A DNA stretch of 64,000 bases from Candidatus Moraniibacteriota bacterium (GCA_028695135.1 JAQVJM010000003.1:2571-66570), one strand, 5' to 3'. Shown: positions 6,797-58,309, counted from the stretch's first letter. Notes: generated from the sequence alone by a model not told the origin. Numbers and translations: made by a program.

Positions 6797-8163
6797 AAAA
6801 AAGATTGAATATAGCGGTATTTGCGATTGTGGCCTTTTTATTGCTGGTCGGAATATTTTTTATTATAAAGAATACAAATAAGGTTTCTCTGATTTCGACG
6901 TCGCTGTCCGCGGTTACAAATGTTGTCAAGCTTCTTCCGATAAAAGAAGACACAAAGAAAGAGATTGAAACAATTGACGCTCTTGCCAAAGAACTTACCA
7001 AAAAAGACGGAAAAGAAAGAAAATTTTTAATCTTACTTCAGAATAATATGGAGCTTCGTCCGGGAGGAGGATTTTTGGGACAGTATGCCGTCATAAAGAT
7101 TAAAGACGGAAATGTCACGGAAAATTATTTCGAGGATGCCAATCTTTTGGATCAAAGGATAAACGCAAAAATTCCGGCGCCTTATCCTTTTGAAAGGATG
7201 ATGAGTATAAAGAAGTGGAAATTTCGCGATTCTAATTTTTCTCCGGATTTTCCTACCAACGCGGAAAGAGCAAAATATTTTTACCGTTTGGCAGGGAAAA
7301 GCAGTGATTTTGACGGGGTTATAGCGGTCAATGCCGACACTTTCAACAGAGTTTTTTCCCTAACCGGACCAATTGCGATTCCGGGGTATGACGTTGTCTT
7401 AAATAGCGATAACGCTACTCTGGAATTGGAGGAAATCGTGGAAAAAAAATATATTATGGATGAGACTCTGGACACCCAGAACAGAAAAGCTGTGATGAAA
7501 ACCCTTACTGATACCATCGTGAAAAAATTGTCAGGTATTGAAAATATTCCCAAGATTTCCAATTTTGTCTTGGAAGAGCTTCGCAATAAAGATGTGATGC
7601 TCAATTTTGAGGATCAAAACCTCCAAAGAATGATTGAAGAAGCGCATTGGGCGGGAGGGGTTTCCGATGATTGGTCAGGCGATTACCTTATGATAGTAGA
7701 TGCTAATATGGGAGCGCTCAAGTCGAACTATTATGTGAAAAGAAGCATGGAATATAATGTCGATCTGACCGGAGAAAAGCCTATGGCAGAACTGAAAATT
7801 TTTTACAGGCATGAAGCCAGGTACGGAGATTGGAGAACTAGCGACTATCATTCTTATTTTCGTGTTTATGCTCCGCAAGGATCGAATTTGTTGGAGAGAG
7901 AAATGGTGAGTTATCCTTACATACAAGAGGAATTCAATAAGACTTATTTTGGATTTTTGCTCCATGTTTTGATAAACGGAAAGACTGATGTCAGGGTGAA
8001 ATACGAGCTTCCTGAAAAAGTGAGAGAAGATGGATACCGACTCTTAGTTCAGAAACAATCCGGAATGGGGGATGTTCCGTTTAAAATAATGGTTAAAACG
8101 GACAAGGGAGAATTTTCTCATGAAGAAACGCTTAAAAAAGATTTGAAATTTGAATTAAAATAA
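6793..8163 (+). CDS. DUF4012-like membrane-anchored envelope protein
   Basis: N-terminal TM helix; LRPGGGFLGQYAVIKIKDGNV motif characteristic of DUF4012 proteins that co-occur with glycosyltransferases; start overlaps upstream GT stop (ATGA). Confidence 0.5.
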   Translation: MKKRLNIAVFAIVAFLLLVGIFFIIKNTNKVSLISTSLSAVTNVVKLLPIKEDTKKEIETIDALAKELTKKDGKERKFLILLQNNMELRPGGGFLGQYAVIKIKDGNVTENYFEDANLLDQRINAKIPAPYPFERMMSIKKWKFRDSNFSPDFPTNAERAKYFYRLAGKSSDFDGVIAVNADTFNRVFSLTGPIAIPGYDVVLNSDNATLELEEIVEKKYIMDETLDTQNRKAVMKTLTDTIVKKLSGIENIPKISNFVLEELRNKDVMLNFEDQNLQRMIEEAHWAGGVSDDWSGDYLMIVDANMGALKSNYYVKRSMEYNVDLTGEKPMAELKIFYRHEARYGDWRTSDYHSYFRVYAPQGSNLLEREMVSYPYIQEEFNKTYFGFLLHVLINGKTDVRVKYELPEKVREDGYRLLVQKQSGMGDVPFKIMVKTDKGEFSHEETLKKDLKFELK

Positions 8164-47505: not shown

Positions 47506-48786
47506 ATGAGTGAATTTATCATATCAATCAGTTTGGCGCTGAGAACTCTTTCAGGAAATAAGATCCGCACGATTTTCTCGCTCTTGGGAATAGTCATAGG
47601 GGTGACTTCGGTAATTCTGATTTTGTCCTTGGGAAACGGTCTTAAAGATTTCGTCAATTCCCAGGTCGAGGCTTTCGGGACGGATATCATCGAAATTGAG
47701 ATAAAAGTGCCTCAAACATCTCAAATATCTTCGCAAAATATAAGCGGTATGGCGGGAGGAATGCAAATAACTACTCTGAAGATTGAAGATGCCGAAGAAG
47801 TTTCCAACCTGCCCAACCTCGGACCATGGTATGCGGGAATCTTGGGGCAGGAAATTATGGGTTATGAAGGAAAAACCGATCATTTTTACATATTCGGGAT
47901 TACAGCCGGCATGCCTGAAGCGGACAGCGGTTTTGAGATCGTATCGGGAAGATTCTTTTCCGAAAGCGAAGATGAAGGGCTGAGGCAGGTCGTAGTTTTA
48001 GGCTCAAAGGCGGAAGAATATTTTTTCCCGAACGAGGAAGCTCTGGGCAAGGATATAAAAATAGGAAACCAGAAGTATCGGGTTATCGGCGTGGCCAAAC
48101 CGAGAGGCGGGATGGGCGGAGTCTTTGATTATGACGAGATTGTTTATATGCCGGCAAGAACGCTTCAGAAAAAAGTTATGGGGATCGATCATATACAATT
48201 TATCATCTATAAGGTGGAAAATATGGATGTCGTAGACCAGACTATCGCTCAGATGGAAATGGTAATGAGGGACAGACATGGTATTGAGTACAAGAATGAA
48301 GAGGACAAAAAGAAGAAGCTCAAGGATGATTTTGCCATAATTTCAATTGCAGAAGCCAAGGAAATAATAGATAATGTTTTTGTGATAATCAATGTGCTTC
48401 TCGTGGGGCTGGCCTCCATTTCTCTTGTCGTGGGAGGAGTAGGCATAATGAACATAATGTACGTGGCGGTTACCGAAAGGACCAAAGAAATAGGGCTAAG
48501 AAAATCCGTAGGTGCAAAAAATTCCGATATTTTGCTCCAATTTATTTTTGAATCGGTATTCCTCACTTTTATCGGAGGCTTTATGGGAATTTTGATCGGT
48601 TATATCCTTTCTAAAATTATCACCCAATTCGCCCAAAACGCCGGGTTTTTCGTGGAATTTTCCGTTACATGGTATTCCATCCTGATCGGATTCGGTTTTT
48701 CTGCGGCGGTGGGAATAATTTTTGGATATTATCCTGCCCGCAAAGCTTCGCGCTTGAGTCCTATGGAAGCGCTGAGAAAGGAGTAG
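47506..48786 (+). CDS. ABC transporter permease, FtsX/MacB family (second paralog)
   Basis: Same architecture as preceding gene. Confidence 0.8.
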   Translation: MSEFIISISLALRTLSGNKIRTIFSLLGIVIGVTSVILILSLGNGLKDFVNSQVEAFGTDIIEIEIKVPQTSQISSQNISGMAGGMQITTLKIEDAEEVSNLPNLGPWYAGILGQEIMGYEGKTDHFYIFGITAGMPEADSGFEIVSGRFFSESEDEGLRQVVVLGSKAEEYFFPNEEALGKDIKIGNQKYRVIGVAKPRGGMGGVFDYDEIVYMPARTLQKKVMGIDHIQFIIYKVENMDVVDQTIAQMEMVMRDRHGIEYKNEEDKKKKLKDDFAIISIAEAKEIIDNVFVIINVLLVGLASISLVVGGVGIMNIMYVAVTERTKEIGLRKSVGAKNSDILLQFIFESVFLTFIGGFMGILIGYILSKIITQFAQNAGFFVEFSVTWYSILIGFGFSAAVGIIFGYYPARKASRLSPMEALRKE

Positions 48787-49046
48787 AGCGAGGATATCGG
48801 AATATCCAGCCATTTGCGGTGAGATAACCTTCGGATCATAAATCTGGAATTATTTTTAATCATTTTGTTTCAGAGCAGCGGCTATCCTTGCCGCCAAGGG
48901 CACATTGATCCTAATAACTTTATTTTTCCTAAACACAACAAACCGCGCGTATTGTCAATATTGCGGTATTTTAAACAGTTGTTTATACTTAGTTATAACA
49001 ATTTTGATTATTATTTTTCTAAATAACTTCTTAAATAGAAAAAATT

Positions 49047-49376
49047 ATGGAAGAAGAAAAGGAAATAAAAGATGCGGAAATTAGCGAAACAAAAAAAGAA
49101 GAAAGCGAAAAAAAGAATTATCGAACCGAAATAATCCTAATTTTTATAATAGGATTATTGGCTGGTGTCATGATCAAAGCGGAAGCGGTGAAAAGAATAA
49201 GCATAGGATTTGATGATTATAGAACAGTAACGAGGAGCCATGGATATGACATAGAAGCTATTGAAAAACAACTCATTGAGGATGCCAAGAAAGAGAAAGA
49301 GGCTGCAGAACAGGGATCCGCCGGATTGGAAGGTGGCGAGGAAGTAATCATAGAGGAAAGTGAAGTTTTGGAATAA
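49047..49376 (+). CDS. Hypothetical single-TM protein with acidic termini
   Basis: 109 aa; central TM IILIFIIGLLAGVMI. Confidence 0.4.
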   Translation: MEEEKEIKDAEISETKKEESEKKNYRTEIILIFIIGLLAGVMIKAEAVKRISIGFDDYRTVTRSHGYDIEAIEKQLIEDAKKEKEAAEQGSAGLEGGEEVIIEESEVLE

Positions 49377-49425
49377 TGAGGATAAATTATAAAAGGTTTA
49401 TAAGAAAATAAGTAATTTAATAAAG

Positions 49426-50553
49426 TTGTCTTTTTGCGCATTTAACGTGCCAGAAAAATCAGCTCATTTGTTTTTTATGAATGAAGAAAAAAAAGTCGAT
49501 TCCCATGAAAATGAAGGAGGAAAGATCGAGTCCGAAGAAGAAATAAGAAAAAAAAGAGAAAAAAATCTTATCTCCCTGTCAATTCTCCTGGCAGGCCTTT
49601 TGTTGGGGAGCCTTTTTGTGGATCTTTCCCAGCTTGTAAAAGGCGGAGGAATATCTCAAAAAATACTAAATGAAAAAGACGTTTTCCAATTGAATGGAAA
49701 AACCTGGGTAGCCTATTCCGATCCGATCATAGATGTTACCGTGGTAAATGATGAAGATTGCGAAGAGTGCAATATTGACGAAGCTTTGGTGTGGTTCAGA
49801 AAGATTGTTCCTACTATGCTTGCCAATAAGGTGGAATACGACTCCGAAGAAGGAAATGAAATGATCAAGGATTTCGGGATAAAATATCTCCCCATTTTTA
49901 TTTTTAGCAAGGAGATCGAAGATACCGAATTTTATGCGCAAGCCCAGCCGTTATTCACCCAGAAAAACGAAAAGTATGTCCTGGACGCTTCTAAGTTGGG
50001 TCTGCCTTCGGGAAAGTATGTGGAAATTCCTGAAATAGGAGAAAATGACATAAAAATCGGTCCGGATGACGCTAAAGTAAAGCTGATCGAGTTCTCGGAT
50101 TTCCAATGTCCGTATTGCCAGCTTTTTCATAATACGATAGGAGACATTATTGAAGAATATGGAGACAAAGTTCAGTTAGTGTTTAAAAACTTACCTCTCG
50201 ATTCTATCCATCCAAGAGCCAGGGATGCGGCTATGGCGGCAGAGTGTGCCAATGAACAAGGGAAATTCAAGGAATATGCCGATAAGCTTTTCGCCAATCA
50301 AAAAACATGGTCGGAAGGAACCGGAAATGGAGCTTTTACCAATTACGCTTCCCAGCTAAGCTTGAATACATCTCAATTCAACCAGTGCTTGACCGAAAGA
50401 AAATACAAAGACAAGATAGAAAGCGATCTCAAAGAAGCTGATGAATTCGGAATATCCGGCACTCCCGCACTGTTCATCAATGACACTTTCAAAAACGGAG
50501 TGGTCCAGCTTGATGAATTGAAAAAGGTGATAGATGAAAAACTGTCTCAATAA
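49426..50553 (+). CDS. DsbA-like thiol:disulfide oxidoreductase, membrane-anchored
   Basis: N-terminal TM; thioredoxin active site FQCPYCQ in C-terminal DsbA-like domain; start may be ATG at 49477. Confidence 0.7.
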   Translation: MSFCAFNVPEKSAHLFFMNEEKKVDSHENEGGKIESEEEIRKKREKNLISLSILLAGLLLGSLFVDLSQLVKGGGISQKILNEKDVFQLNGKTWVAYSDPIIDVTVVNDEDCEECNIDEALVWFRKIVPTMLANKVEYDSEEGNEMIKDFGIKYLPIFIFSKEIEDTEFYAQAQPLFTQKNEKYVLDASKLGLPSGKYVEIPEIGENDIKIGPDDAKVKLIEFSDFQCPYCQLFHNTIGDIIEEYGDKVQLVFKNLPLDSIHPRARDAAMAAECANEQGKFKEYADKLFANQKTWSEGTGNGAFTNYASQLSLNTSQFNQCLTERKYKDKIESDLKEADEFGISGTPALFINDTFKNGVVQLDELKKVIDEKLSQ

Positions 50554-50574
50554 TTTAAAAATCTGAGCATATCG

Positions 50575-50610
50575 GAGCCCCGGTTATTTTTCCGGGGCTT
50601 TTAAGTTTGA
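50575..50610 (+). terminator. Rho-independent terminator (AGCCCCGG-ttattttt-CCGGGGCT + TTT)
   Basis: 8-bp GC stem after dsbA-like stop. Confidence 0.5.
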
Positions 50611-50809
50611 CAAAAAATTTAATTGGTATAATATTTATGATATGGATAAATCGAAAAACCTACTGATTATAATTAGCTCGATTATTATTGGCCGAAGAGG
50701 TCAGTCGGTTTTTGCGGGTTAAAAAGGTAGAAAATTTCGCAGAAGCAAGCTGATCTCGCGGTCAGTTTTTTTGTTTAGTAATTTTAAAATTAAATAAAAG
50801 GAGAGAAAA

Positions 50810-51115
50810 ATGGTGGAAAAAAGACTGAGGGAAAAATACGGAAAAATTATTGATGAGGGGATGGGAATAGTCGTGATATTTTTTGAGAATCTGGACGATG
50901 ATTCCCCTCACGGGGGGCCTATCAGCATAACAAAGGTCATTGATGATATGAATTTCATCAACGCTTTTTGTAGCGGAGCGCTCTCGATATATAAAAGTAT
51001 AAAGGGTGCTTCAATTTATGTCGTGTTTAAAAATGGCTCTTTGAGAGTAGAAAAGTATACAGGACATCCAATCTTCAGAAATCCAAACTGTTGCGGCGGC
51101 GAAATCGCAATTTAA
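50810..51115 (+). CDS. Hypothetical protein (101 aa) with C-terminal NPNCCGGEIAI; first gene of ATP-grasp cassette
   Basis: AGGAG 8 nt upstream; no recognisable family. Confidence 0.45.
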   Translation: MVEKRLREKYGKIIDEGMGIVVIFFENLDDDSPHGGPISITKVIDDMNFINAFCSGALSIYKSIKGASIYVVFKNGSLRVEKYTGHPIFRNPNCCGGEIAI

Positions 51116-51251
51116 CTTTATTCCAAAACAAGAACAAGGATTGTATCGGTCAACGATTGATGCGATCCTTTTAAATTTGACAAAAACAAAATGTGTGATA
51201 TTTTAAAATTGGAATATTTAGCAAAGATCAATGAGTATTCAAATTTGTAAA

Positions 51252-51383
51252 ATGACATATAAAATAATAAGCGGATGGGCGAATCCTTATGCCGGAATTT
51301 TTAATGTGAAACTCAAGGCCTGTATGGTTTCTGCAAATTGTGATGAATTTTTGGAAAAAAATGAAAAATTCAAAAAAATCTAA
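51252..51383 (+). CDS. Small ORF (43 aa) MTYKIISGWANPYAGIFNVKLKACMVSANCDEFLEKNEKFKKI followed by terminator
   Basis: Found by reading; weak RBS; immediately upstream of terminator 51406-51440 and ABC exporter. Confidence 0.2.
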   Translation: MTYKIISGWANPYAGIFNVKLKACMVSANCDEFLEKNEKFKKI

Positions 51384-51405
51384 GATATTTGCGATAAAAG
51401 CGATT

Positions 51406-51440
51406 TTTTAAAACCATCTCGGCCGGGTCAAAAAGCCGAG
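51406..51440 (+). terminator. Rho-independent terminator (ATCTCGGC-cgggtcaaaaa-GCCGAGAT + TTTTTTTT)
   Basis: Perfect 8-bp stem + 8 T. Confidence 0.6.
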
Positions 51441-51485
51441 ATTTTTTTTGGAATATTTTTTAAAAGTTATTATGTCTCAAGAAAC

Positions 51486-53255
51486 ATGAGTAGGGAAAAA
51501 AGAAAGAAAAAAGAGGGGTTTTGGTCTGAATTGCTGGATCTGCTTGCGCCTTCGGTAAAAACGATGAAAAGGATATTCATCCTGATGATATTCGTGGAAG
51601 CTGTCAAGTTGGTCGGGCCTTATCTGCTCAAAGTAATAATCGACGTTCTGACGGATTTTTCAAACGACCGGGTCTTTCTTTTGCTTGTTTTGGCAGGAGG
51701 ATATTTTTTGAGCTTGCAGGCCGTTTCCATCCTTGATTATTTGCAATACAAAAAAGTCTTTAGGATGCTCATAAACATAGAATATTATCTTCCGGTTAGA
51801 GCGGAGAAAAAATTGATGGACCTGCCTCTCAGCTATCATGAGAAGGAGGGAACAGGAAATAAGATCATAAAGATCGAGAAAGGAGCGACTCGTATCATTG
51901 ATCTTATGGCCAACGCTTCGTGGGAAGTCGTTCCCACGCTTCTGCAGCTGGTAGCCACCCTGGCGGTCCTCTTGGCAGTGAATCCTTGGTTCGGGGCCGT
52001 TTTTGCCTTCTTTTCCCCGATTTTCATCTGGATAACCTATGATGTAAACAGGAAGCTCTATCCTATCAGAAAGAGAAGATGGAAAAGGAACGAAGAATCT
52101 TACGGAAAAATGGCCCAGTCGATCATTAATATAAACACCGTCAAATCTTTCGCGCAAGAAATACGGGAAGCCCGGGAATTTAAAAGCATAAAGAAAAAAA
52201 TAAGAGATGCCGAATTTAGAGAGTGGTTTTATCTTTTAAAAATAGGGCTGGCGAGAAATCTGGTCATCGATTTCGGAAGATTAAGCATTCTTTTTCTCGG
52301 AGCTTATTTTGTCTGGAGCGGAATTGAAACTATCGGCACGCTTGTCTTCGTATTTACTCTTTCGGAGAAATCCTATCTTTCTCTTTACAGATTGAGCCGT
52401 TTTTACGATAAGCTAGAAGAAGGCAAAGAAGCGGTCGGAAGGTTCATAAAGCTCACCAAGGCCAAATCAAATATAATCAATCCCCAAAACGGGATTAAGC
52501 CGGAAAGATTGCAGGGAAAAATAGAATTCAAAAACGTCAGTTTTTCTTATAAAAAAGAGGACGAGAAAGCCCTTAGAAACATAAATCTCAAAATAATTCC
52601 TGAAAGCAAGGTGGCTTTGGTAGGTCCCTCCGGGGGAGGAAAAACTACCTTGGCCAGAATGATTTATCGCCATTATGATCCCAAGTCCGGAGAGATCCTT
52701 TTGGATGGAAGAAATTTGAAGGATTATGATATTTATTCGATGCGCAAGAAGATGGCGATTGTCCCTCAGGAAGTGGAAATTTTCGACTCAAGCATCCGCG
52801 ATAATATTTCTTATGCCAATCCCAAGGCCGGCTTTAAAGAAATTCAAGCCGTAGCCAGAGTGGCTAATGCGGATGAATTCATCCAGAAACTGAGCAACGG
52901 CTATGATACTTTGGTCGGAGAAAGGGGAACCAGGCTCTCCGGCGGCCAAAGACAGAGGATAGGGATAGCTAGGGCGCTTTTGGCCAATCCTGATATAATT
53001 ATTTTTGACGAGGCTACCAGTAATTTGGACAGCCAAAGCGAAAGACTTATCCAGGAGGCTATGGAGAGAATAAGCAAAGGAAGGACGATAATCATAATTG
53101 CCCATCGCTTGAGCACGGTCAAAAAAGCGGATAAAATAGTTGTTATTGAAGAAGGAAAGATCATTGAGGAAGGAAATCACTGTGAACTTTCAGAGAGCAG
53201 AGGCGGAGTTTACGCCAGACTTTTAAAGTTGCAAAAAATGGGAGATATCGAATAG
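51486..53255 (+). CDS. ABC exporter, fused 6-TM permease + ATPase (ABCB/MsbA-like)
   Basis: Six N-terminal TM helices; Walker A GPSGGGKTT, signature LSGGQRQR, Walker B IIIFDEATS. Confidence 0.85.
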   Translation: MSREKRKKKEGFWSELLDLLAPSVKTMKRIFILMIFVEAVKLVGPYLLKVIIDVLTDFSNDRVFLLLVLAGGYFLSLQAVSILDYLQYKKVFRMLINIEYYLPVRAEKKLMDLPLSYHEKEGTGNKIIKIEKGATRIIDLMANASWEVVPTLLQLVATLAVLLAVNPWFGAVFAFFSPIFIWITYDVNRKLYPIRKRRWKRNEESYGKMAQSIININTVKSFAQEIREAREFKSIKKKIRDAEFREWFYLLKIGLARNLVIDFGRLSILFLGAYFVWSGIETIGTLVFVFTLSEKSYLSLYRLSRFYDKLEEGKEAVGRFIKLTKAKSNIINPQNGIKPERLQGKIEFKNVSFSYKKEDEKALRNINLKIIPESKVALVGPSGGGKTTLARMIYRHYDPKSGEILLDGRNLKDYDIYSMRKKMAIVPQEVEIFDSSIRDNISYANPKAGFKEIQAVARVANADEFIQKLSNGYDTLVGERGTRLSGGQRQRIGIARALLANPDIIIFDEATSNLDSQSERLIQEAMERISKGRTIIIIAHRLSTVKKADKIVVIEEGKIIEEGNHCELSESRGGVYARLLKLQKMGDIE

Positions 53256-53318
53256 GCTGCCGGATATTGAAATTTAACCTTCTATGCTATAGAATATTTC
53301 TATTCGCTAGTTTTAATT

Positions 53319-54113
53319 ATGGTAAAAAATCATTACAAAAAATACAGAAAAAAATCCAATATTCTTTTGACCTGCGAGCACGCTTCCAAAAGGATTCCGA
53401 GAGAATTCAAGAGATTGGGGCTAAAAAGAAAAGAATTGGAGAATTCTAAAGACTGGTATGATCCAGGCGCTTTTGAAGTTATGAAGTTTTTGGCGGAAAA
53501 ACTGAAGACCAGCTGTATATATTCCGATGTCTCCAGATTGGTTATCGATTACAACAGGAGGCTTAACGGAAAAAATAAAAATAAGGACAAATTCCATTCT
53601 TGTCCGATGAAGTACGAACTTTTGGTCGGAAAAAACGGAAAAGACGATATTGTAAAAATTCCCGGAAATAATTTTTCGACTGAAAAAAAATTTTTGGCAG
53701 AAGAGAAAAAAAGATTCAAAAAATATGTAGTTCCATATAGAAAGGACGGATATTTAATGATAGACAGGATTAAAAATGTTCATAAAATGGCGTATGTTAT
53801 CCTGATCCATTCTTTCTATCCTTTTTACAATGGCGACAAGAGGAATGTGGACATAGGCGTTTTGCATTTTAGCAAGCAGACTTTTTCCGAAAGAGTCATA
53901 AAAAGTTTAAAAAAGAACACAAAATTCAAAATAGGAAATAATAAGCCATGGAAGCTCAGCGATGCCGATGGATCTATATTCCACAGGGTTGAGGATATGA
54001 AGAATGCGGAGCTCCTGGTTTTTGACATAAACAATAAAAATCTGATAAATAAGAAAGATATCAAAAAAATATCCGTTGCCATAGCCGAAGCGTTGAAAGA
54101 AAATATTTTTTAA
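53319..54113 (+). CDS. N-formylglutamate amidohydrolase (FGase)-family amidohydrolase-like protein
   Basis: N-terminal ILLTCEHASKRIP motif resembling the FGase/PF05013 signature; assignment by eye, moderate. Confidence 0.4.
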   Translation: MVKNHYKKYRKKSNILLTCEHASKRIPREFKRLGLKRKELENSKDWYDPGAFEVMKFLAEKLKTSCIYSDVSRLVIDYNRRLNGKNKNKDKFHSCPMKYELLVGKNGKDDIVKIPGNNFSTEKKFLAEEKKRFKKYVVPYRKDGYLMIDRIKNVHKMAYVILIHSFYPFYNGDKRNVDIGVLHFSKQTFSERVIKSLKKNTKFKIGNNKPWKLSDADGSIFHRVEDMKNAELLVFDINNKNLINKKDIKKISVAIAEALKENIF

Positions 54114-54376
54114 AAAAACGGCGGTTCCCTTGCGTTTCTTTATTAACCGAGCTATACTATAAGCATGAATAAACAATCCGTAAAAAATAGCATCTTGTTG
54201 CTCAGCCTGCTGCTAGGGCTCCTTAAAGGAGATCGGTTTGTTTTTGTTCGGAAAAAATAGTTTAGAGTAAATTCTGAGTAAAAGTAAACTGGTCTCCTCG
54301 CGAAATCAGTTTTTTGTTTTTTGAAAATTGAATATTTATCAAATGGAAAAAAGAGGGTAAAAAAAGGAGGGACGAC

Positions 54377-55477
54377 ATGAAGTGCTTGGCAAACGGAGAA
54401 GAAATGTTTAATTACAAAACTCGATTGGGAGAATACAAAATCGGAGCTTTTTTGGGAGAATTCTTGTGGGAAAACGATGAACTTTTCCGGCTTATCGATT
54501 TATGTCAACAAATTTGGAAGGAGATTTTTGTAAAGTCCGGAAAGCCTAATTTTATCGGACTTGTGAGACCGGATCTGGTTCCGGGCTTTTCCAATCCGGA
54601 GGGAAAAAGTCTTGGCAAGCTTGAGGTGAGGGGAATTTATGAGATAAATGTCCATTCGCCAGAGTGTCTAGCCGGTATTTCCGCCCTGGAGCATTTTACT
54701 GGGTTAAAAACTGAAAACGATCCATGCATAGTTTTCTCTGATAAACTGAAAGAGTTTTTTGGCAATTCTCAGATTGCTTTTGTCTGTGGAAACAATCTTC
54801 TTAAAAGGGAGTGGGGAGCTATATTTTTTGCAAAACTCAAAAGCCTAGGGATTAATGTAAGATGGATAAGTCCCGAAGAATCCATGAGAGAAAGCCCAAA
54901 AATCATATTCAGGTGGGGGGACGCGAGAATTGACGGTCCGAGCCATTTTTCTCCGGTTTTTGTAAACTGGCTCAGGACGCAGAAAAAAAGTTTCGTTTTT
55001 AATTCCGTTCCTAACGGAGTCGACTTGGGAGACAAATCTTTTCTTATCAAAACGAACGATGATGATCTTTCCAAAATTTTTGGCATAAATCGTCCTTTGC
55101 GGAGCGAGGAGGATATATGGTGGTCTGTCGATGAAAACGGCAAGCACTCCAATTTTCTCGTAAAGCCCGACAAAGGGGCTTCAGGGGATGATATTTTTTT
55201 CGGAGAAAATATGATTTCCTCCCAATGGATAAGGATTCTCAAGGAAAAACTATCCTCCGGTCGAAAATATTCTCTCTGGGAAGCTAAATGGCTTCCGGAA
55301 GTGATGATCGGGCAAGATTCTTTTTCTATGGATCTAGATCCTGTTTTTTGGGCTGAAAATGATAAACTTTCTTATCTATACTCAATATCAAGAGTGGATA
55401 ACTACTCGCGATACAGATTGAGAAAAACCATCAATGTGGCTCAAGGAGCCGGACTGGCTCTTCATACGGTACAGTAG
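54377..55477 (+). CDS. Hypothetical protein, possible divergent ATP-grasp-like ligase
   Basis: FLVKPDKGASGDDIFFGEN resembles the ATP-grasp central-domain K-P-x-x-G-S-x-G pattern; no clear E-x-N motif; GGAGG RBS. Confidence 0.4.
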   Translation: MKCLANGEEMFNYKTRLGEYKIGAFLGEFLWENDELFRLIDLCQQIWKEIFVKSGKPNFIGLVRPDLVPGFSNPEGKSLGKLEVRGIYEINVHSPECLAGISALEHFTGLKTENDPCIVFSDKLKEFFGNSQIAFVCGNNLLKREWGAIFFAKLKSLGINVRWISPEESMRESPKIIFRWGDARIDGPSHFSPVFVNWLRTQKKSFVFNSVPNGVDLGDKSFLIKTNDDDLSKIFGINRPLRSEEDIWWSVDENGKHSNFLVKPDKGASGDDIFFGENMISSQWIRILKEKLSSGRKYSLWEAKWLPEVMIGQDSFSMDLDPVFWAENDKLSYLYSISRVDNYSRYRLRKTINVAQGAGLALHTVQ

Positions 55478-55485
55478 CGCCAAGA

Positions 55486-55528
55486 AGCCCGATTGTGGAA
55501 AACTCCGCAATCGGGCTTGTTTTTTTTG
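55486..55528 (+). terminator. Rho-independent terminator (AAGCCCGATTG-loop-CAATCGGGCTT + TTTTTTTT)
   Basis: 11-bp perfect stem, T-run. Confidence 0.6.
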
Positions 55529-55723
55529 TCTTATCGTGTATAATCAAAATATGCAAAATAAAACTGTAAAAAATCTATATTTCTTTTTCGGATTTTATTT
55601 CTGGATTTTGTCCGGCCAGTTTATTTTTGCTAGGAAATAATAGCTGAAGAAATTTCTAGGTAAAGATGAGCTGGCTGGCAGGCCAGTTTTTTAGTTCGTT
55701 GAAAATTTAATTAGTAGGCACTA

Positions 55724-55747
55724 GCGCATATGCGCACGCATATGTGT
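55724..55747. promoter_or_regulatory. Two adjacent CATATG-centred palindromes (GCGCATATGCGC ACGCATATGTGT) upstream of ATP-grasp gene; candidate operator
   Basis: Read directly; GC-rich dyads unusual in this AT-rich background, 57 nt before ATG 55804. Confidence 0.4.
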
Positions 55748-55803
55748 CGATATATTTGGGGAAAATTGAAAATTAAAGGATAAAAAACCAAGAGAAAAAG
55801 GAG

Positions 55804-57099
55804 ATGGGAATGAGAAGAAAGGTTTATGAGGGCACATGCATCAATCACAAAGGCGGAGTGGGGGAAATCGGATCAATGATAAATCATTCGGTTTTCCAGA
55901 AAGGAACTGTAGGGGACACCCTGATAAATCATGATTTAAAAGATGGCGCTCCGACTTCTGATTCTGTCTTGCAGTTCGATTGCACCGATGAAGATTTGGC
56001 GAGGATGCTCGGATTGTATTCTTATATAATCAGAGCGTTAGTTGTTGGAGGAAAACGGAGCATATTCCAGATATTGGAAGAGCTGAAAGAGGCTTTGTTT
56101 TGGCAGATGGATCACTTCAACCGGATCGGAATTGAATATCCCGAAGAAGTGGTTATTGACGGATGCGACTTCAGTCTCGCGTCCCATCCTGACTTAAAAG
56201 ATGTAAAGCTGTCAACTTTCTTTTTCGGTCCGGAGGCTCAAAAAGTCAGGCCTGATCAGAAAAGGTTCGATGCCGTGCAGTTTTTTAACAATAAAAACAA
56301 TGTCATTCGGCTGGCCAAATCTCTGGGAGTGAGGGTTCCTCCCACCCTTTTATTTTCTTCGGTAGACGAGGTGGGAGATTGCGCGGATTTTGTCTATCCT
56401 TCAACGATAAAAATGGGTAATTCTGTATCAGGGCTGGGTCTTGAGAAGTGTTATTCTAGGGAGCATCTGGAAAAAGTCCTGAGAAGAGTCCCTGTCGGAA
56501 AAGATTTTCAAATGCAGAAGTTCCTTGAGAATCTTGTTCCCTTTTCCATACAATGGTGGGCGGATGAAAGCGGTCCTGTTCCAATCACCGGGACTTGCAA
56601 TTTTATCGAAGGTAATGCGAATCACGCCGGGAATTGGAGCTCTCCAGATATTCCCCATCGAGCCTTGATTAAATTTACTCTGTTGCTTGCGGTCATTGCA
56701 TGGATGATGGGCATTAGGGATTGGTTCAGTTTCGATGTTGGTCTCTATGATAATGGAAGTCCGAATTTTTATCTCTTGGAATGTAATCCTCGCTATACTG
56801 GAGCCGCATATCCGTTTATTGCGGCCTCAAAACTGCTTGGCGGAATTAAAGAGGCAAGAGAGTATTTTTGGGCCAGTAAAACTTACAAATCTTCCATGAA
56901 TTCCATAAATAAACTTGATCTTGGTGAATTGGAATTCGGATTCAAGGGCAATCCCAAATCCGGAAAGAGGGAAGGTTGGATATCTGTCAATCCGGGTCCT
57001 CTCTCTGTCGGCGATGGAAAGATATCTATGATGTATGTCGGCAATCCTGCCAATTACAGGAAGTCGGAGGATAAGCTTAAAAATTTGCTGGATTCTTAG
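55804..57099 (+). CDS. ATP-grasp domain ligase (amidoligase/peptide ligase-type)
   Basis: Central domain YPSTIKMGNSVSGLGLEKCYSREHLEKVL, C-terminal FYLLECNPRYTG (E-x-N-P-R motif typical of ATP-grasp). Confidence 0.7.
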   Translation: MGMRRKVYEGTCINHKGGVGEIGSMINHSVFQKGTVGDTLINHDLKDGAPTSDSVLQFDCTDEDLARMLGLYSYIIRALVVGGKRSIFQILEELKEALFWQMDHFNRIGIEYPEEVVIDGCDFSLASHPDLKDVKLSTFFFGPEAQKVRPDQKRFDAVQFFNNKNNVIRLAKSLGVRVPPTLLFSSVDEVGDCADFVYPSTIKMGNSVSGLGLEKCYSREHLEKVLRRVPVGKDFQMQKFLENLVPFSIQWWADESGPVPITGTCNFIEGNANHAGNWSSPDIPHRALIKFTLLLAVIAWMMGIRDWFSFDVGLYDNGSPNFYLLECNPRYTGAAYPFIAASKLLGGIKEAREYFWASKTYKSSMNSINKLDLGELEFGFKGNPKSGKREGWISVNPGPLSVGDGKISMMYVGNPANYRKSEDKLKNLLDS

Positions 57100-57114
57100 C
57101 TATAGGAGTAAATA

Positions 57115-57438
57115 ATGAAAGATAAAAATGGAAATAACTTGAGTGCTGATTTACTTGAGTGCTGCTTTAAAAAAGCAGTCGATTCTATTGGAATGATTTG
57201 GGAAATCACCGGTCTTGAAATGAGGCACTGCAGAGCCAGGTTGTCTTATGGGAACCTGCTTAAAGGAGCTCTTTGCTCCGACAATCGAATCGTCATATCT
57301 ATGGCTATACGACCTAACGGCTCAGTGGGTCTTTCGTGCTTAAAAAATTCCCACGAAAAAGTTTCCGGAAAGGAAAATATTTTTGGTGATTTTATCAAAA
57401 ATTTCAGAAGGGCGCTTGCCCAGGAGGATCTGTCATGA
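57115..57438 (+). CDS. Hypothetical protein (107 aa), Cys-containing, downstream of ATP-grasp
   Basis: AGGAG RBS 8 nt upstream; no recognised motif. Confidence 0.45.
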   Translation: MKDKNGNNLSADLLECCFKKAVDSIGMIWEITGLEMRHCRARLSYGNLLKGALCSDNRIVISMAIRPNGSVGLSCLKNSHEKVSGKENIFGDFIKNFRRALAQEDLS

Positions 57439-57512
57439 AAATAACTTATCTTGTCGGCGGCGAAGGCGAGGGAGATGCCGGCGGCGATATTGGCACAGGA
57501 GACGGATGGTAA
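57435..57512 (+). CDS. Small Gly/Asp/Glu-rich peptide (25 aa) MKITYLVGGEGEGDAGGDIGTGDGW; candidate substrate/precursor peptide
   Basis: ATG overlaps upstream stop (ATGA); AGGAGG 7 nt upstream; GC-rich codons in AT-rich genome; below ORF-track cutoff. Confidence 0.35.
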   Translation: MKITYLVGGEGEGDAGGDIGTGDGW

Positions 57513-57600
57513 ATAGCCCGGATAATTCCGGGAAAACTTACGGGTAGATCGGCAATGTGATTCATTTCACAACCGGTCTGCCCATTTTTTTTATTCTCTC

Positions 57601-57640
57601 ATTATACGGTTCTATTGCAACCGCAATAGAACCGTATAAT
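57601..57640. repeat. Perfect 18-bp inverted repeat ATTATACGGTTCTATTGC-aacc-GCAATAGAACCGTATAAT
   Basis: Read directly; preceded by T8 on plus strand, not followed by a T-run on either strand. Confidence 0.6.
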
Positions 57641-57865
57641 TAAAATATAAAGTAGGCTCTCCGCATGAGTTGCACATCCGTGATTCGCGGATAATCTCAG
57701 TCTCCGCAGATTACTGATCGGCATTATGCTTCTTCTGCTTGCTAATATGAATTTTTTAGGATAGACTGGATATAAAGTGTTAAAAATATGAAATATCGAT
57801 AACTGTTATTCCTGTTTTTGAAAGCAGAGAATGGTGGTTGTTTTTATTTTATTGCTTAAAAAAAT

Positions 57866-58309
57866 ATGAAAGTGATTTTACTTAAAGATGTCAATAAAAC
57901 AGGCAGAGCCGGAGAAGTTGTAAATGTGGCGGACGGATATGCCAGAAATTTTTTATTTCCGCAAGGATTGGCCCAACAGGCGACCGACGCTTCTTTAAAA
58001 AAAATCGAAGAAATAAAGGCTCAGCAAGAAAAGGAAGAAAAAACGAAAATGGAGAAATTTAAAAAAGAGGCTGAAAAGATAAACGGCAAGAAAATAACTA
58101 TTTTAGAAAAAGCCAAGGGCGGGAAACTTTTCGGCTCGGTTGATGACAAGAGGATTGCAGAAGAAGTCAGTAAGCAGTTGGGGGTGAGTGTCGGGTCTGA
58201 AAGTATAAAAACAGGCAAGCCTATAAGAGAAATTGGAGAAAAAGAAATTGAAATTTCCCTTACTGACGAATTAAAAGCAAAATTAACAGTTGAAATTAAG
58301 GAAAATTAA
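57866..58309 (+). CDS. rplI: 50S ribosomal protein L9
   Basis: [36 protein letters not shown] conserved L9 N-domain. Confidence 0.9.

What the first reader, a model, noticed from the sequence alone, without database searches (positions are those of the whole stretch)
50810..57640. Candidate ATP-grasp peptide-ligation/modification cassette with dedicated ABC exporter, amidohydrolase and small peptide genes
Seven co-directional genes sit between a terminator after the dsbA-like gene and a strong palindrome before rplI. They are: a 101-aa unknown; a 43-aa micro-ORF plus terminator; an ABCB-type exporter; an FGase-family amidohydrolase-like protein; a possible divergent ATP-grasp (VKPDKGASGDDIFF); a clear ATP-grasp ligase (LLECNPRYTG); a 107-aa unknown; and a 25-aa Gly/Asp/Glu-rich peptide. 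Internal terminators (51406, 55486), CATATG dyads and a shared upstream motif indicate independent regulation. ATP-grasp ligase + hydrolase + exporter + small acidic peptide is the logic of graspetide (microviridin-type) RiPP clusters, and of the ligase/peptidase peptide-tagging systems of Iyer et al. 2009, but none of the candidate precursors shows a canonical graspetide core. To my knowledge this arrangement is not described for reduced CPR genomes.
Basis: partly seen in the sequence, partly recalled or inferred. Interest (0 to 1): 0.85.

Follow-up and report, generated by a model that had tools for sequence, protein, structure and literature searches.

The report
Amino-acid-sensing ligase and hydrolase cassette
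In an ultra-small (CPR) bacterium, two ATP-driven bond-forming enzymes and a bond-cleaving enzyme sit behind three miniature 'leader peptide' switches, each apparently sensing shortage of a different hydrophobic amino acid, so this looks like a starvation-controlled amino-acid conjugation system and not the antibiotic-like peptide factory first suspected.

Summary
The genes are real. They are an ABCB-type exporter, an FGase-family amidohydrolase, a GspS/YgiC-type acid-amine ligase (54377-55477) and an L-amino-acid-ligase-like ATP-grasp (55804-57099). The window comes from a Candidatus Moranbacteria MAG.

In relatives only the ligase(s) plus an amidohydrolase stay linked. The hydrolase is FGase, or is swapped for M20 or C26. 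The exporter, the 43-aa ORF and the 25-aa ORF are not conserved. Nothing supports a graspetide/RiPP reading.

The 'shared upstream motif' is the main finding. It is a family of leader-peptide transcription attenuators that gave no Rfam match. Each has a -10 box about 6 nt before an ATG. A 26-31-codon micro-ORF follows, with a run of regulatory codons. The 3' end of the micro-ORF forms a 25-bp antiterminator, of which 14 pairs covary, and this competes with an intrinsic terminator.

The window has three such leaders:
- Ile-rich, before the 101-aa gene.
- Leu-rich, before the GspS-type ligase.
- Phe/Tyr/Trp-rich, before the ATP-grasp and the 107-aa gene.

About 20 related loci show the same design, and paralogous ligases there carry different codon runs.

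Best reading: starvation for a given hydrophobic amino acid induces a ligase/amidohydrolase pair that makes and cleaves small amide conjugates of that amino acid. The closest parallel is LdmS/HmrA. The chemistry and the physiological purpose remain inferred.

The parts
50607..50635 (+). Promoter-like site (TTGACA, 16-17 nt spacer, TAATAT) just upstream of the first leader ORF
   Evidence: No Shine-Dalgarno sequence precedes the ATG at 50642 (sequence).
50642..50722 (+). Ile-rich leader micro-ORF, MDKSKNLLIIISSIIIGRRGQSVFAG*
   Evidence: It has six Ile codons (ATT/ATA) within 9 codons. L003 has a counterpart at 1907, MKKQTLNYQMLILILISLIGQRGRFVFARN.
50642..50779 (+). Attenuator RNA 1: an antiterminator helix overlapping the terminator at 50747-50768, followed by a T-run at 50766-50772
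   Evidence: R1 covariance-model hit, 38.1 bits, E=1.3e-4 with filters off. Terminator. The MFE fold shows the long antiterminator.
50810..51115 (+). 101-aa protein of unknown function ('o101'), downstream of the Ile leader
   Evidence: No Pfam, NCBIfam or PHROG hit. It is 39-40% identical to the L003 104-aa protein. Weak relatives lie behind Ile/Leu/Val leaders in L025 and L013.
51136..51170 (+). Terminator-like hairpin after o101
   Evidence: 16 pairs.
51231..51383 (+). Micro-ORF (50 aa, or 43 aa from the second ATG). It is not conserved and its role is unresolved.
   Evidence: no tblastn hit outside the same genome. R1 does not hit it.
51416..51449 (+). Intrinsic terminator-like hairpin (ATCTCGGC / GCCGAGAT) plus a T-run, upstream of the ABC gene
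   Evidence: Read from the sequence. There is possible alternative pairing with 51316-51330, p about 0.013. This is inconclusive.
51486..53255 (+). ABCB-type half-transporter (exporter); an accessory gene specific to this lineage
   Evidence: Pfam ABC_membrane plus ABC_tran. NCBIfam hits resemble MsbA and HlyB but all fall below their cutoffs. The gene is absent from L001, L003, L005, L013 and all other loci.
53319..54113 (+). FGase-family (PF05013) amidohydrolase
   Evidence: It is linked to the ATP-grasp in L001, L003, L005, L012, L013, L022-L025 and L038.
54165..54260 (+). Leu-rich leader micro-ORF, MNKQSVKNSILLLSLLLGLLKGDRFVFVRKK*
   Evidence: It has nine Leu codons of six different kinds. 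The -10-like TATACT ends 6 nt before the ATG.
54165..54323 (+). Attenuator RNA 2: antiterminator, weak terminator at 54286-54312, and T-runs at 54310-54322
   Evidence: R1 hit, 80.6 bits, E about 1e-11, and not in the training set. Folds.
54377..55477 (+). GspS/YgiC/Cp1B-type acid-amine ligase (permuted ATP-grasp), 366 aa
55485..55518 (+). Strong intrinsic terminator ending the GspS-type ligase transcription unit
   Evidence: Conserved in L003 and L005.
55551..55640 (+). Aromatic (Phe/Tyr/Trp) leader micro-ORF, MQNKTVKNLYFFFGFYFWILSGQFIFARK*
   Evidence: TATAAT ends 6 nt before the ATG. Homologous leaders occur in about 17 other loci.
55551..55700 (+). Attenuator RNA 3: a 25-bp antiterminator, a terminator at 55668-55689, and a T-run at 55687-55692
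   Evidence: R1 hit, 123.5 bits. Covariation. Terminator.
55724..55747 (+). CATATG-containing hairpin, an insertion specific to this window relative to L003 and L005
55804..57099 (+). ATP-grasp ligase of the L-amino-acid-ligase/peptide-ligase type, 431 aa. It has a conserved but disordered N-terminal repeat (residues 1-54).
   Evidence: K203, the SVSGLG loop, Q236/Q238, D311 and E326-C-N328-P-R330 are invariant.
57115..57438 (+). 107-aa protein ('o107'), a partner of the ATP-grasp
   Evidence: It is 45% identical to the gene at the same position in L003. A homologous domain is fused to the C-terminus of the ligase in P0013/L005. No fold or family was found.
57435..57512 (+). 25-aa Gly/Asp/Glu-rich ORF, probably not a gene
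   Evidence: No counterpart outside the same genome.
57601..57640 (.). Perfect palindrome before rplI, probably the end of the ATP-grasp transcription unit
   Evidence: Sequence. The only Rfam match is spurious.

Best explanation
The region is a starvation-regulated island of four short transcription units, not a peptide-natural-product cluster.

Three of the units begin with a leader-peptide transcription attenuator of one conserved design:
- A promoter whose -10 box ends about 6 nt before an ATG, so the leader ORF is probably translated without a 5' UTR.
- A micro-ORF of 26-31 codons carrying a run of codons for one class of hydrophobic amino acid.
- A 3' end of that ORF (...RG(R/Q)FVFAKK) that forms the 5' arm of a 25-bp antiterminator helix.
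- A 3' arm of that helix which overlaps the 5' arm of an intrinsic terminator.

Proposed mechanism (inferred):
- When the cognate charged tRNA is plentiful, the ribosome runs to the stop codon in the antiterminator loop and melts the helix. The terminator forms and transcription stops.
- When the tRNA is scarce, the ribosome stalls in the codon run. The antiterminator forms and the downstream gene is transcribed.

In this window the assignments are:
- Ile codons control the 101-aa gene.
- Leu codons control the GspS/YgiC-type acid-amine ligase.
- Phe/Tyr/Trp codons control the L-amino-acid-ligase-like ATP-grasp and its 107-aa partner.
- The ABC exporter and the FGase amidohydrolase form a fourth unit whose control is unresolved.

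What is shown: the enzyme classes, the ligase-amidohydrolase linkage, and the attenuator architecture with covariation.

What is inferred: each ligase ATP-dependently joins its cognate hydrophobic amino acid to a small partner, probably an acidic amino acid or dicarboxylate, giving a dipeptide-like conjugate. The amidohydrolase (FGase here; M20 or C26 in relatives) cleaves that conjugate. This parallels the Met/Cys-starvation-controlled LdmS/HmrA pair of Staphylococcus.

My tentative physiological reading is capture, buffering or salvage of scarce hydrophobic amino acids in an auxotrophic cell.
For: Enzyme classes.

Linkage:
- The trio recurs in four different genomic neighbourhoods and gene orders: the window, L003, L005 and L013.
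- FGase-to-grasp pairs occur in L012, L022-L025 and L038.
- L001 has grasp, then an unknown gene, then FGase.
- Distant homologues of either ligase sit next to M20 or C26 hydrolases.
- o107 is fused to the ligase in P0013.

Leaders:
- An aromatic-rich micro-ORF lies upstream of the first cluster gene in about 18-19 of about 21 distinct loci, whichever gene comes first. Background is 48 of 2589 small ORFs in 327 kb.
- Every leader is followed by a terminator.
- Complementarity between the ORF 3' end and the terminator 5' arm has p<=0.01 in 14 of 18 leaders.

Antiterminator covariation:
- On 10 leaders, 94% of cells pair against 43-56% in slid controls. Eight pairs show double changes, and 0 of 500 shuffles reach this.
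- On 18 leaders, 8 of them not in the training set, 14 of 25 pairs show double changes. 91% pair against 39-56% in slid controls.

Same scaffold with different codon runs: Ile, Leu and aromatic in the window and L003, with further classes in L005, L007, L009, L016 and L025. In L016 and L009, paralogous ligases carry aromatic versus Ile/Leu/Val leaders.

Only three R1 hits occur in the 64-kb window, and all lie in this cassette.

The -10 box ends 6 nt from the ATG in 8 of the 19 leaders, and one more has a near-consensus -10-like hexamer at that distance. No Shine-Dalgarno sequence is present.

Context pointing to Phe/Tyr: a TyrA-like gene next to L001, a PDT gene next to L009, and pheST next to L010 and L037.

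Parallel: LdmS is the best PDB relative. It sits in an operon with the M20 hydrolase HmrA under S-box, CymR and CodY control.
Against: - No experiment or transcript data exist. Attenuation is inferred from sequence and covariation only.
- A classical 1:2 pause or 'protector' helix is not supported.
- The terminator of the Leu leader is weak, at -6.5 kcal/mol.
- L037 has the ligase plus M20 without a leader.
- Inducing an ATP-consuming ligase that would use up the scarce amino acid is paradoxical. The same paradox was noted for LdmS. The substrates could therefore be something other than the sensed amino acid.
- The FGase in this window is not behind a recognised leader.
- Distant family members are fused to MurF-like Mur ligases, which hints at other roles for the wider clade.
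Confidence: 0.62

Rival explanations
1. RiPP/graspetide or peptide-tagging cassette. The ATP-grasp enzymes modify one of the small ORF products, the FGase trims it, and the ABC transporter exports it.
For: Ligase, hydrolase, exporter and small ORFs are co-located. PGM1 and the 8ynd peptide ligase, which act on ribosomal peptides, are among the structural neighbours. The conserved micro-ORFs have a conserved C-terminal RG(R/Q)FVFAKK motif. Graspetide clusters do exist in CPR bacteria.
Against: - The exporter, the 43-aa ORF and the 25-aa ORF are not conserved. The ABC protein has no C39 domain.
- Graspetide ligases are not near neighbours.
- The conserved micro-ORFs precede whichever gene comes first, including loci that have only a GspS-type ligase.
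- Their 'conserved C-terminus' is the arm of an RNA helix with compensatory changes that alter the amino acids.
- Their variable part is a single-class codon run (aromatic, Leu, or Ile/Val), not a Thr/Ser...Asp/Glu core.
Confidence: 0.06
2. The micro-ORFs encode functional small hydrophobic peptides, such as membrane peptides, signal-like peptides or arrest peptides that sense a free ligand as TnaC does. They would then not be codon-run sensors of charged tRNA.
For: The window's aromatic and Leu peptides have about 20 hydrophobic residues flanked by Lys or Arg. The RG(R/Q)FVFA motif is conserved at the peptide level as well as the RNA level.
Against: In most loci the hydrophobic run is only 9-12 residues, too short to span a membrane. 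The composition class is conserved but the sequence is not. The Leu run uses six different Leu codons. The RNA helix covaries. Paralogous genes carry different single-class runs.
Confidence: 0.1
3. Cell-wall or housekeeping role. The 431-aa ATP-grasp would be a divergent Ddl-like dipeptide ligase feeding a Mur ligase, with the hydrolase acting as a VanX-like dipeptidase.
For: Distant members of the same ATP-grasp clade are fused to MurF-like domains. Ddl and VanA appear among weak profile hits.
Against: - The fusions are from Rhodoferax and Synechococcus, lack the N-terminal extension and are remote.
- The close family is rare: 20 clusters among 5.8 billion proteins and 8 loci among 185,579 species genomes. 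It cannot therefore be a general CPR housekeeping gene.
- The best relatives are LdmS, BesA and PGM1, not Ddl.
- Control by aromatic codons is not expected for a D-Ala-D-Ala ligase.
Confidence: 0.08
4. Two-step synthesis and export of a glutathione-like or gamma-glutamyl peptide, similar to a gamma-glutamyl cycle, linked to the neighbouring DsbA.
For: The 366-aa enzyme has the GspS / eukaryotic glutathione-synthetase fold. A second ligase, an ABC exporter with CydDC-like similarity and a DsbA gene lie nearby. C26 gamma-glutamyl hydrolases replace FGase in L006 and L028.
Against: The exporter is not conserved. DsbA synteny holds only for the close relatives; L001 and L013 lack it. The amino-acid-specific leaders (Leu versus aromatic) are not explained by a common donor peptide.
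Confidence: 0.05

Closest known systems
hmrA/ldmS operon of Staphylococcus (L-aspartate-L-methionine ligase LdmS plus M20 amidohydrolase HmrA; PMC9486568)
   Same: LdmS (7r8p/7r8q) is the best sequence-profile and structural match of the 431-aa ATP-grasp. It is an L-amino-acid ligase encoded next to an amidohydrolase, and the operon is controlled by availability of the amino acid it ligates (S-box, CymR, CodY). Distant homologues of the window ligase sit next to M20 hydrolases.
   Different: Sequence identity is only about 15%. The hydrolase here is an FGase, and a second GspS-type ligase is present. Control is by leader-peptide attenuation and concerns Ile, Leu and aromatic amino acids. The organisms are Patescibacteria. 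No substrate has been determined.
Classical leader-peptide (ribosome-mediated) attenuators: E. coli trpL, pheL, leuL, ilvL, pheM; C. glutamicum aroR (PMC11802643)
   Same: A short ORF with a run of codons for the sensed amino acid lies upstream of mutually exclusive antiterminator and terminator structures. An aromatic-mixed leader (Phe-Tyr-Phe) is known for aroR.
   Different: - There is no Rfam match.
- One RNA scaffold is reused with interchangeable codon runs.
- The leader ORF appears leaderless.
- No 1:2 helix is supported.
- The regulated genes are not biosynthetic enzymes or tRNA synthetases but orphan ligases, amidohydrolases and small proteins.
- The host is a CPR bacterium. I found no report of such attenuators in this group.
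Glutathionylspermidine synthetase/amidase (GspSA), E. coli YgiC/YjfC, and the fungal E-64 pathway ligase Cp1B (PMC12568646)
   Different: Identity is 10-16%. There is no CHAP amidase domain, and hydrolysis is by a separate FGase or M20. Substrates are unknown.
Graspetide (microviridin-type) RiPP clusters, including the CPR branches 1 and 2 of Makarova et al. 2022 (PMC8939145)
   Same: ATP-grasp enzymes sit next to small ORFs, peptidases and sometimes ABC transporters in CPR genomes.
   Different: The ligase clade is different. There is no T/S...D/E core, no Phhx(1,2)h leader, and no cluster-23, TPR or SPASM partners. The small ORFs here are regulatory.
N-formylglutamate amidohydrolase HutG / Atu2144 (PF05013)
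   Same: The 264-aa protein is a clear family member.
   Different: It scores far below the HutG equivalog cutoff: 21 bits against 279. No hut genes are nearby, so a different N-acyl-amino-acid or dipeptide substrate is likely.

Membership tests
Graspetide (microviridin-type) RiPP cluster | MdnC/CdnC/PsnB-type ATP-grasp macrocyclase | tested here: not met
Graspetide (microviridin-type) RiPP cluster | Conserved precursor with a leader and a Thr/Ser...Asp/Glu core | tested here: not met
   The 43-aa and 25-aa ORFs are not conserved. The conserved micro-ORFs are hydrophobic codon runs inside an attenuator RNA.
Graspetide (microviridin-type) RiPP cluster | Dedicated exporter or leader peptidase linked to the ligase | tested here: not met
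   The ABC gene occurs only in this genome and lacks a C39 domain.
ATP-grasp L-amino acid ligase (LdmS/BacD/BL00235-like) | ATP-grasp fold with the ATP-binding Lys, a Gly-rich loop, and the E-x-N Mg2+ ligands plus a catalytic Arg | tested here: met
   K203, S207-V-S-G-L-G212, D311 and E326-C-N328-P-R330 are invariant in 20 sequences. Fold match to 7r8q at E=6.6e-17. Profile match to 7r8p at E=1.5e-9 and to 3vot at E=1.3e-4.
ATP-grasp L-amino acid ligase (LdmS/BacD/BL00235-like) | Ligation of two free L-amino acids | not testable with these tools
   This needs an enzyme assay. The aromatic leader gives only indirect evidence.
GspS / YgiC / Cp1B acid-amine ligase (permuted ATP-grasp) | Characteristic fold and conserved R-x-D and E-x-N motifs | tested here: met
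FGase (PF05013) | Pfam model above the gathering score | tested here: met
   74.4 bits against a cutoff of 28.9. 2odf matches at E=2.4e-19.
HutG N-formylglutamate deformylase (TIGR02017 equivalog) | Score above the equivalog cutoff | tested here: not met
   21.4 bits against a cutoff of 278.75.
Leader-peptide transcription attenuator | Short ORF with a run of codons for one amino acid (class) upstream of the regulated gene | tested here: met
   Three in the window and about 30 across the loci.
Leader-peptide transcription attenuator | Intrinsic terminator between the leader ORF and the gene | tested here: met
   All 18 leaders examined have one. Window terminators are at 50747-50768, 54286-54312 (weak) and 55668-55689.
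Leader-peptide transcription attenuator | Antiterminator that excludes the terminator and overlaps the translated region | tested here: met
   A 25-bp helix, with 14 of 25 pairs showing compensatory changes. 91% of cells pair against 39-56% in slid controls.
Leader-peptide transcription attenuator | Upstream 1:2 (pause/protector) helix as in trp | tested here: not met
   70% of cells pair, which is no better than the shuffles, and there are no double changes.
Leader-peptide transcription attenuator | Read-through responds to the supply of charged tRNA | not testable with these tools
   This needs in vivo or in vitro transcription-translation assays.
Rfam cis-regulatory leader families (Phe_leader, Leu_leader, Trp_leader and others) | Match to a curated covariance model | tested here: not met
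   cmscan of 50400-58000 at E<=1 gave only three unrelated weak hits.
Ligase/peptidase peptide-tagging systems (Iyer et al. 2009) | A target protein or peptide whose terminus is extended by the ligase | not testable with these tools
   The paper is not held in the library. o107 is fused to the ligase in one relative, which fits either a partner or a target.

The most novel reading that the evidence does not exclude
A previously unrecognised family of modular leader-peptide attenuators in CPR/Patescibacteria. One leaderless RNA scaffold carries swappable Ile, Leu, Val, Phe or Phe/Tyr/Trp codon runs. It controls a new kind of amino-acid acquisition system. In that system each orphan ATP-grasp ligase is specific for the hydrophobic amino acid reported by its own leader. 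The ligase traps that amino acid as a charged, membrane-impermeant conjugate, and the paired FGase, M20 or C26 amidohydrolase releases it on demand. This would amount to ATP-driven 'ligation trapping' in place of biosynthesis in an auxotroph. The leaders would then serve as a built-in code for the substrate specificity of dozens of uncharacterised ligases.
Probability: 0.2. Interest if true: 0.85.

Novelty: new variant of a known kind. Interest (0 to 1): 0.7.

Why it matters
CPR bacteria lack most amino-acid biosynthesis, and how they sense and secure amino acids is largely unknown.

The sequence itself suggests what each gene responds to. Three adjacent genes carry Ile, Leu and aromatic sensors built on one RNA scaffold. 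That gives concrete, cheap tests:
- Which amino acid does each orphan ligase use?
- Does the FGase cleave the product?

It would also extend ribosome-mediated attenuation to a phylum where I found no report of it, and to genes that are neither biosynthetic enzymes nor tRNA synthetases.

The same 'ligase plus amidohydrolase induced by shortage of the ligated amino acid' puzzle exists for LdmS/HmrA in Staphylococcus aureus. A solution here could generalise.

The covariance model also offers a way to annotate a new cis-regulatory RNA class and to correct spurious small-gene calls such as the L005 '107 aa' gene.

Tried and rejected
- **RiPP reading.** I tested conservation of the 43-aa and 25-aa ORFs and of the exporter. 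None is conserved.
- **Known riboswitch or leader.** The Rfam evalue scan found nothing. The weak Purine hit at 50604-50682 (27 bits against a gathering score of 37) overlaps the promoter and Ile leader, and I take it as chance.
- **trp-style 1:2 helix.** Not supported.
- **o107 and o101.** No Pfam, NCBIfam or PHROG family was found. The profile-versus-PDB search gave only summed short matches to designed 'Pizza' repeat proteins, with no passing stretch, so I treat these as spurious. The search for homologous proteins for o107 returned only itself.
- **L001 359-aa gene between grasp and FGase.** No Pfam, NCBIfam or PDB hit, and no similarity to the GspS-type profile: hhalign probability 0.4%. 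My impression of a GCS2-like motif is from memory only.
- **Iyer et al. 2009.** The paper could not be retrieved.
- **Context of the ATP-grasp-MurF-like fusion in Synechococcus.** Uninformative.
- **Micro-ORF and terminator upstream of the ABC gene.** Only a marginal alternative pairing, p about 0.013, and no R1 hit. Left unresolved.
- **L009b.** My first Tyr-rich reading was a frame error. The ATG at 4778 gives an Ile/Leu/Val-rich peptide with the family's C-terminal motif.

Full report
**1. What is there**

The window is from a Candidatus Moranbacteria (CPR/Patescibacteria) MAG. The 431-aa protein is 100% identical to NCBI PHH24_01210.

- Pfam confirms the exporter at 51486-53255 (ABC_membrane plus ABC_tran, no C39 peptidase domain).
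- Pfam also confirms the amidohydrolase at 53319-54113 (FGase PF05013, E=1.9e-20). Its best PDB relative is Atu2144, 2odf.
- NCBIfam places the exporter only generically among MsbA/HlyB-like half-transporters, with every hit below its cutoff. It places the FGase far below the HutG equivalog cutoff.

**2. The two ligases**

Neither protein hits Pfam on its own.

*The 431-aa protein (55804-57099).*
- It has 20 homologue clusters, all in Patescibacteria-type metagenomes.
- Fourteen of 20 members weakly hit ATP-grasp_3.
- The family profile finds PDB 7r8p at E=1.5e-9, and also CPSase, the L-amino-acid ligase BL00235 and Ddl.
- The alignment keeps the canonical ATP-grasp residues: K203, the SVSGLG loop, D311 and E326-x-N328-x-R330.
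- The AF2 model has pLDDT 78 and pTM 0.80.
- Its best Foldseek matches are SAOUHSC_02373 (LdmS, an L-Asp-L-Met ligase; identity confirmed in PMC9486568), a Streptomyces ATP-grasp peptide ligase (8ynd), BesA and PGM1.
- It is therefore of the L-amino-acid/peptide-ligase type. It is neither a housekeeping Ddl, PurK or CarB nor a graspetide macrocyclase.

*The 366-aa protein (54377-55477).*
- It has 9 homologue clusters.
- The AF2 model has pLDDT 86.7.
More precisely, it is a GspS/YgiC-type acid-amine ligase.

**3. What is linked in other genomes**

I fetched contexts by exact-protein look-ups and by genome and metagenome scans. I annotated them by tblastn with reference proteins.

- GspS-type ligase plus FGase plus ATP-grasp occurs in the window, L003, L005 and L013/L029. 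L013 is in an unrelated neighbourhood with another gene order.
- FGase followed by ATP-grasp occurs in L012, L022-L025 and L038.
- L001 has ATP-grasp, then an unknown 359-aa gene, then FGase.
- More distant ATP-grasp homologues pair with M20 peptidases (L007/L015, L014, L016/L031, L026) or with a C26 gamma-glutamyl-hydrolase-type protein (L006, L028).
- Distant GspS-type homologues pair with M20 (L008, L009, L037).
- The conserved unit is therefore 'amide ligase(s) plus an amidohydrolase', with non-orthologous replacement of the hydrolase.
- The ABC exporter occurs only in this genome.
- The 107-aa ORF (57115-57438) is conserved in L003 (45% identity) and is fused to the C-terminus of the ligase in P0013/L005. 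It is a genuine partner.
- The 101-aa ORF has a homologue in L003 and weaker relatives in L025 and L013.
- The 43/50-aa and 25-aa ORFs have no counterpart outside the same genome.

**4. The shared upstream motif is a leader-peptide attenuator**

The 326-nt spacer before the ATP-grasp gene is strikingly conserved with L003 and L005, and partly with L001. It contains a micro-ORF, MQNKTVKNLYFFFGFYFWILSGQFIFARK (55551-55640).

- An equivalent Phe/Tyr/Trp-rich micro-ORF lies on the same strand, 70-350 nt upstream of the first gene of the cluster, in about 18-19 of about 21 distinct loci. This holds whether the first gene is the ATP-grasp, the FGase or the GspS-type ligase.
- In 327 kb scanned on both strands, only 48 of 2589 ATG-ORFs of 12-60 aa reach the same aromatic density. 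About 18 of those are these leaders.
- Each micro-ORF is followed 20-40 nt later by an intrinsic terminator.
- A ten-sequence alignment shows that the ORF's 3' end (GAGAGGTCGCTTTGTTTTTGCTAAGAAA, encoding ...RGRFVFAKK) is nearly the reverse complement of TTTCTTGATAAAAATAAGCCGGCCTCTC. That second sequence includes the terminator's 5' arm.
- On the ten-sequence alignment this 25-bp antiterminator pairs in 94% of cells, against 43-56% when the partner is slid. Eight pairs show changes on both sides, and 0 of 500 shuffles reach the observed values.
- A trp-style 1:2 helix that I also tried is not supported.
- The -10 hexamer ends 6 nt before the ATG in 8 of the 19 leaders, and one more has a near-consensus -10-like hexamer at that distance. 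No Shine-Dalgarno sequence precedes it, whereas the enzyme genes have strong ones. The leader ORF is therefore probably leaderless.

**5. One scaffold, several amino acids**

A covariance model of the leader (R1) found further copies that were not in its training set.

In the window:
- 54165-54323 (80.6 bits) lies before the GspS-type ligase. Its micro-ORF is MNKQSVKNSILLLSLLLGLLKGDRFVFVRKK, with nine Leu in six different codons.
- 50642-50779 (38.1 bits, E about 1e-4) lies before the 101-aa gene. Its micro-ORF is MDKSKNLLIIISSIIIGRRGQSVFAG, with six Ile.
- With filters off, these two and the aromatic leader are the only significant hits in the whole 64-kb window.

In other loci:
- L003 has the same three classes in the same three positions.
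- L005 has Ile/Val (before the GspS-type ligase), Val/Leu, Leu (before a third ATP-grasp) and aromatic (before the ligase-o107 fusion).
- L016 has two ATP-grasp paralogues, one behind an aromatic leader and one behind an Ile/Leu leader.
- L009 has two GspS-type paralogues, one behind a Phe leader and one behind an Ile/Leu/Val leader.

On the 18 best hits, 8 of them new, the antiterminator shows 14 of 25 pairs with compensatory changes. 91% of cells pair against 39-56% in slid controls, and 0 of 500 shuffles reach this on every measure. That alignment is fitted to the model, so it leans towards the structure. The MAFFT-based result does not have this bias.

Rfam has no match. A full-text search found no paper combining leader peptide, attenuation and Patescibacteria.

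**6. Mechanism (inferred)**

The stop codon lies in the antiterminator loop.
- A ribosome that translates through occupies the 5' arm. This frees the 3' arm to form the terminator, and transcription stops.
- A ribosome stalled in the codon run leaves the 5' arm free. The antiterminator then forms and transcription reads through.

This is the established logic of the trp, phe, leu and ilv attenuators, and of C. glutamicum aroR, whose leader carries a Phe-Tyr-Phe motif (PMC11802643). Here it is a three-segment version.

The transcription units in the window are then:
- Ile leader, then o101.
- An unresolved micro-ORF and terminator, then the ABC exporter and FGase.
- Leu leader, then the GspS-type ligase, then the strong terminator at 55485-55518.
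- Aromatic leader, then the ATP-grasp and o107, then the palindrome.

**7. Function**

What is shown: two carboxylate-amine ligase classes and an amidohydrolase, genetically linked, and individually wired to sensors for specific hydrophobic amino acids.

Context adds support:
- A TyrA-like prephenate dehydrogenase is divergent from the ligase in L001.
- A prephenate dehydratase lies just upstream in L009.
- pheST is adjacent in L010 and L037.

What is inferred: each ligase uses the amino-acid class its leader senses and forms a dipeptide-like conjugate. The hydrolase cleaves it. FGase, M20 and C26 all have members that cleave N-acyl or gamma-linked Glu/Asp-type amides; this is my own knowledge.

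The closest precedent is LdmS/HmrA. There an L-amino-acid ligase and an M20 hydrolase form an operon de-repressed on Met/Cys shortage. Its authors note the same paradox of consuming the scarce amino acid.

I favour capture, buffering or salvage of hydrophobic amino acids in an auxotroph. This step is speculative.

**8. Wider family**

An exhaustive profile search finds 130 clusters (at 50% identity) with E<=1e-30.
- Most lack the N-terminal extension.
- Three are fusions of this ATP-grasp to a MurF-like Mur ligase, from Rhodoferax and Synechococcus.
- This suggests the clade commonly works together with a second amide ligase.
- The one fusion locus I looked at was uninformative.

**9. Comparison and verdict**

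The RiPP/tagging logic is not supported.

Graspetide clusters are in fact already described for CPR bacteria. They have different ligases, precursors (TxxxT...D...D) and partner genes (PMC8939145).

The cassette is best filed as a new variant of two known kinds combined:
- Ligase/amidohydrolase modules of the LdmS/HmrA or GspSA type.
- A new, modular family of leader-peptide attenuators.

Still unexplained:
- The substrates.
- The roles of o101 and o107.
- The conserved but disordered N-terminal 'NH..G..G.IG' triple repeat of the ligase.
- Control of the ABC-FGase unit.

Noticed in passing
window 55804-55965 (residues 1-54 of the 431-aa ligase): The N-terminal extension carries three copies of an 'NH..G..G.IG'-like motif (INHKGGVGEIG / INHSVFQKGTVG / INHDLKDGAP). 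It is strongly conserved across the close family, yet AF2 predicts it as disordered (pLDDT below 50). More distant family members lack it.
   Followed up: partly
P0051, P0089, P0156 (L036 7001-9541): Distant members of the same ATP-grasp clade are fused to a MurF-like Mur-ligase domain. They are about 845 aa and come from Rhodoferax and Synechococcus sp. CS-1328. The layout recalls cyanophycin synthetase, but they do not match CphA models.
   Followed up: partly
L001 11245-12324: In one relative the GspS-type ligase is replaced by an unrelated 359-aa protein between the ATP-grasp and the FGase. It has no Pfam, NCBIfam or PDB match. Its motifs GVEMEF and RVEFR reminded me of GCS2-type carboxylate-amine ligases, but this is unverified.
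   Followed up: partly
window 50642, 54165, 55551 and leaders in L001, L003, L005, L012, L025, L026, L027: The -10-like hexamer ends exactly 6 nt before the leader ATG, with no Shine-Dalgarno sequence. The leader peptides would therefore be translated from leaderless mRNAs.
   Followed up: partly
L005 7799-8408: Two attenuators sit in tandem before one ATP-grasp gene: a Val/Leu-rich one at 7799 and a Leu-rich one at 8250. The '107 aa' gene call at 7824-8147 largely overlaps the first leader and is probably spurious. A 52-aa Cys-rich ORF (7989-8147) lies between the two.
   Followed up: no
L009 3181-6078: Two tandem GspS-type paralogues followed by an M20 peptidase. The first is behind a Phe-rich leader (FFEFFFF) and the second behind an Ile/Leu/Val-rich leader (FLIIVLLII). 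A prephenate dehydratase gene lies directly upstream.
   Followed up: partly
window 51231-51449: A non-conserved micro-ORF plus a good terminator lie upstream of the ABC-FGase unit. It is not of the R1 scaffold. A marginal alternative pairing (51316-51330 with the terminator 5' arm) could mean another attenuator or riboswitch-like element.
   Followed up: partly
window 55724-55747: The GCGCATATGCGCACGCATATGTGT hairpin (the CATATG dyads) is an insertion of about 20 nt, absent from the otherwise conserved leaders of L003 and L005.
   Followed up: no
window 57601-57640: A perfect 40-nt palindrome (TTATACGGTTCTATTGCAACCGCAATAGAACCGTATAA) with no T-run lies in a 350-nt spacer before rplI. Its function is unknown.
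   Followed up: no
window 47506-50553; L003 283-1793; L005 226-5389: Synteny of a MacB/FtsX-type ABC system, a 109-aa acidic membrane protein and a DsbA with a long N-terminal extension is conserved upstream of the cassette in the closest relatives (DsbA 70-75% identical). L001 and L013 lack it.
   Followed up: no
L037 9320-9640: Three tRNA-like sequences lie between the GspS-type ligase/M20 pair and pheST. I noticed them in the raw sequence and did not run them through ARAGORN.
   Followed up: no
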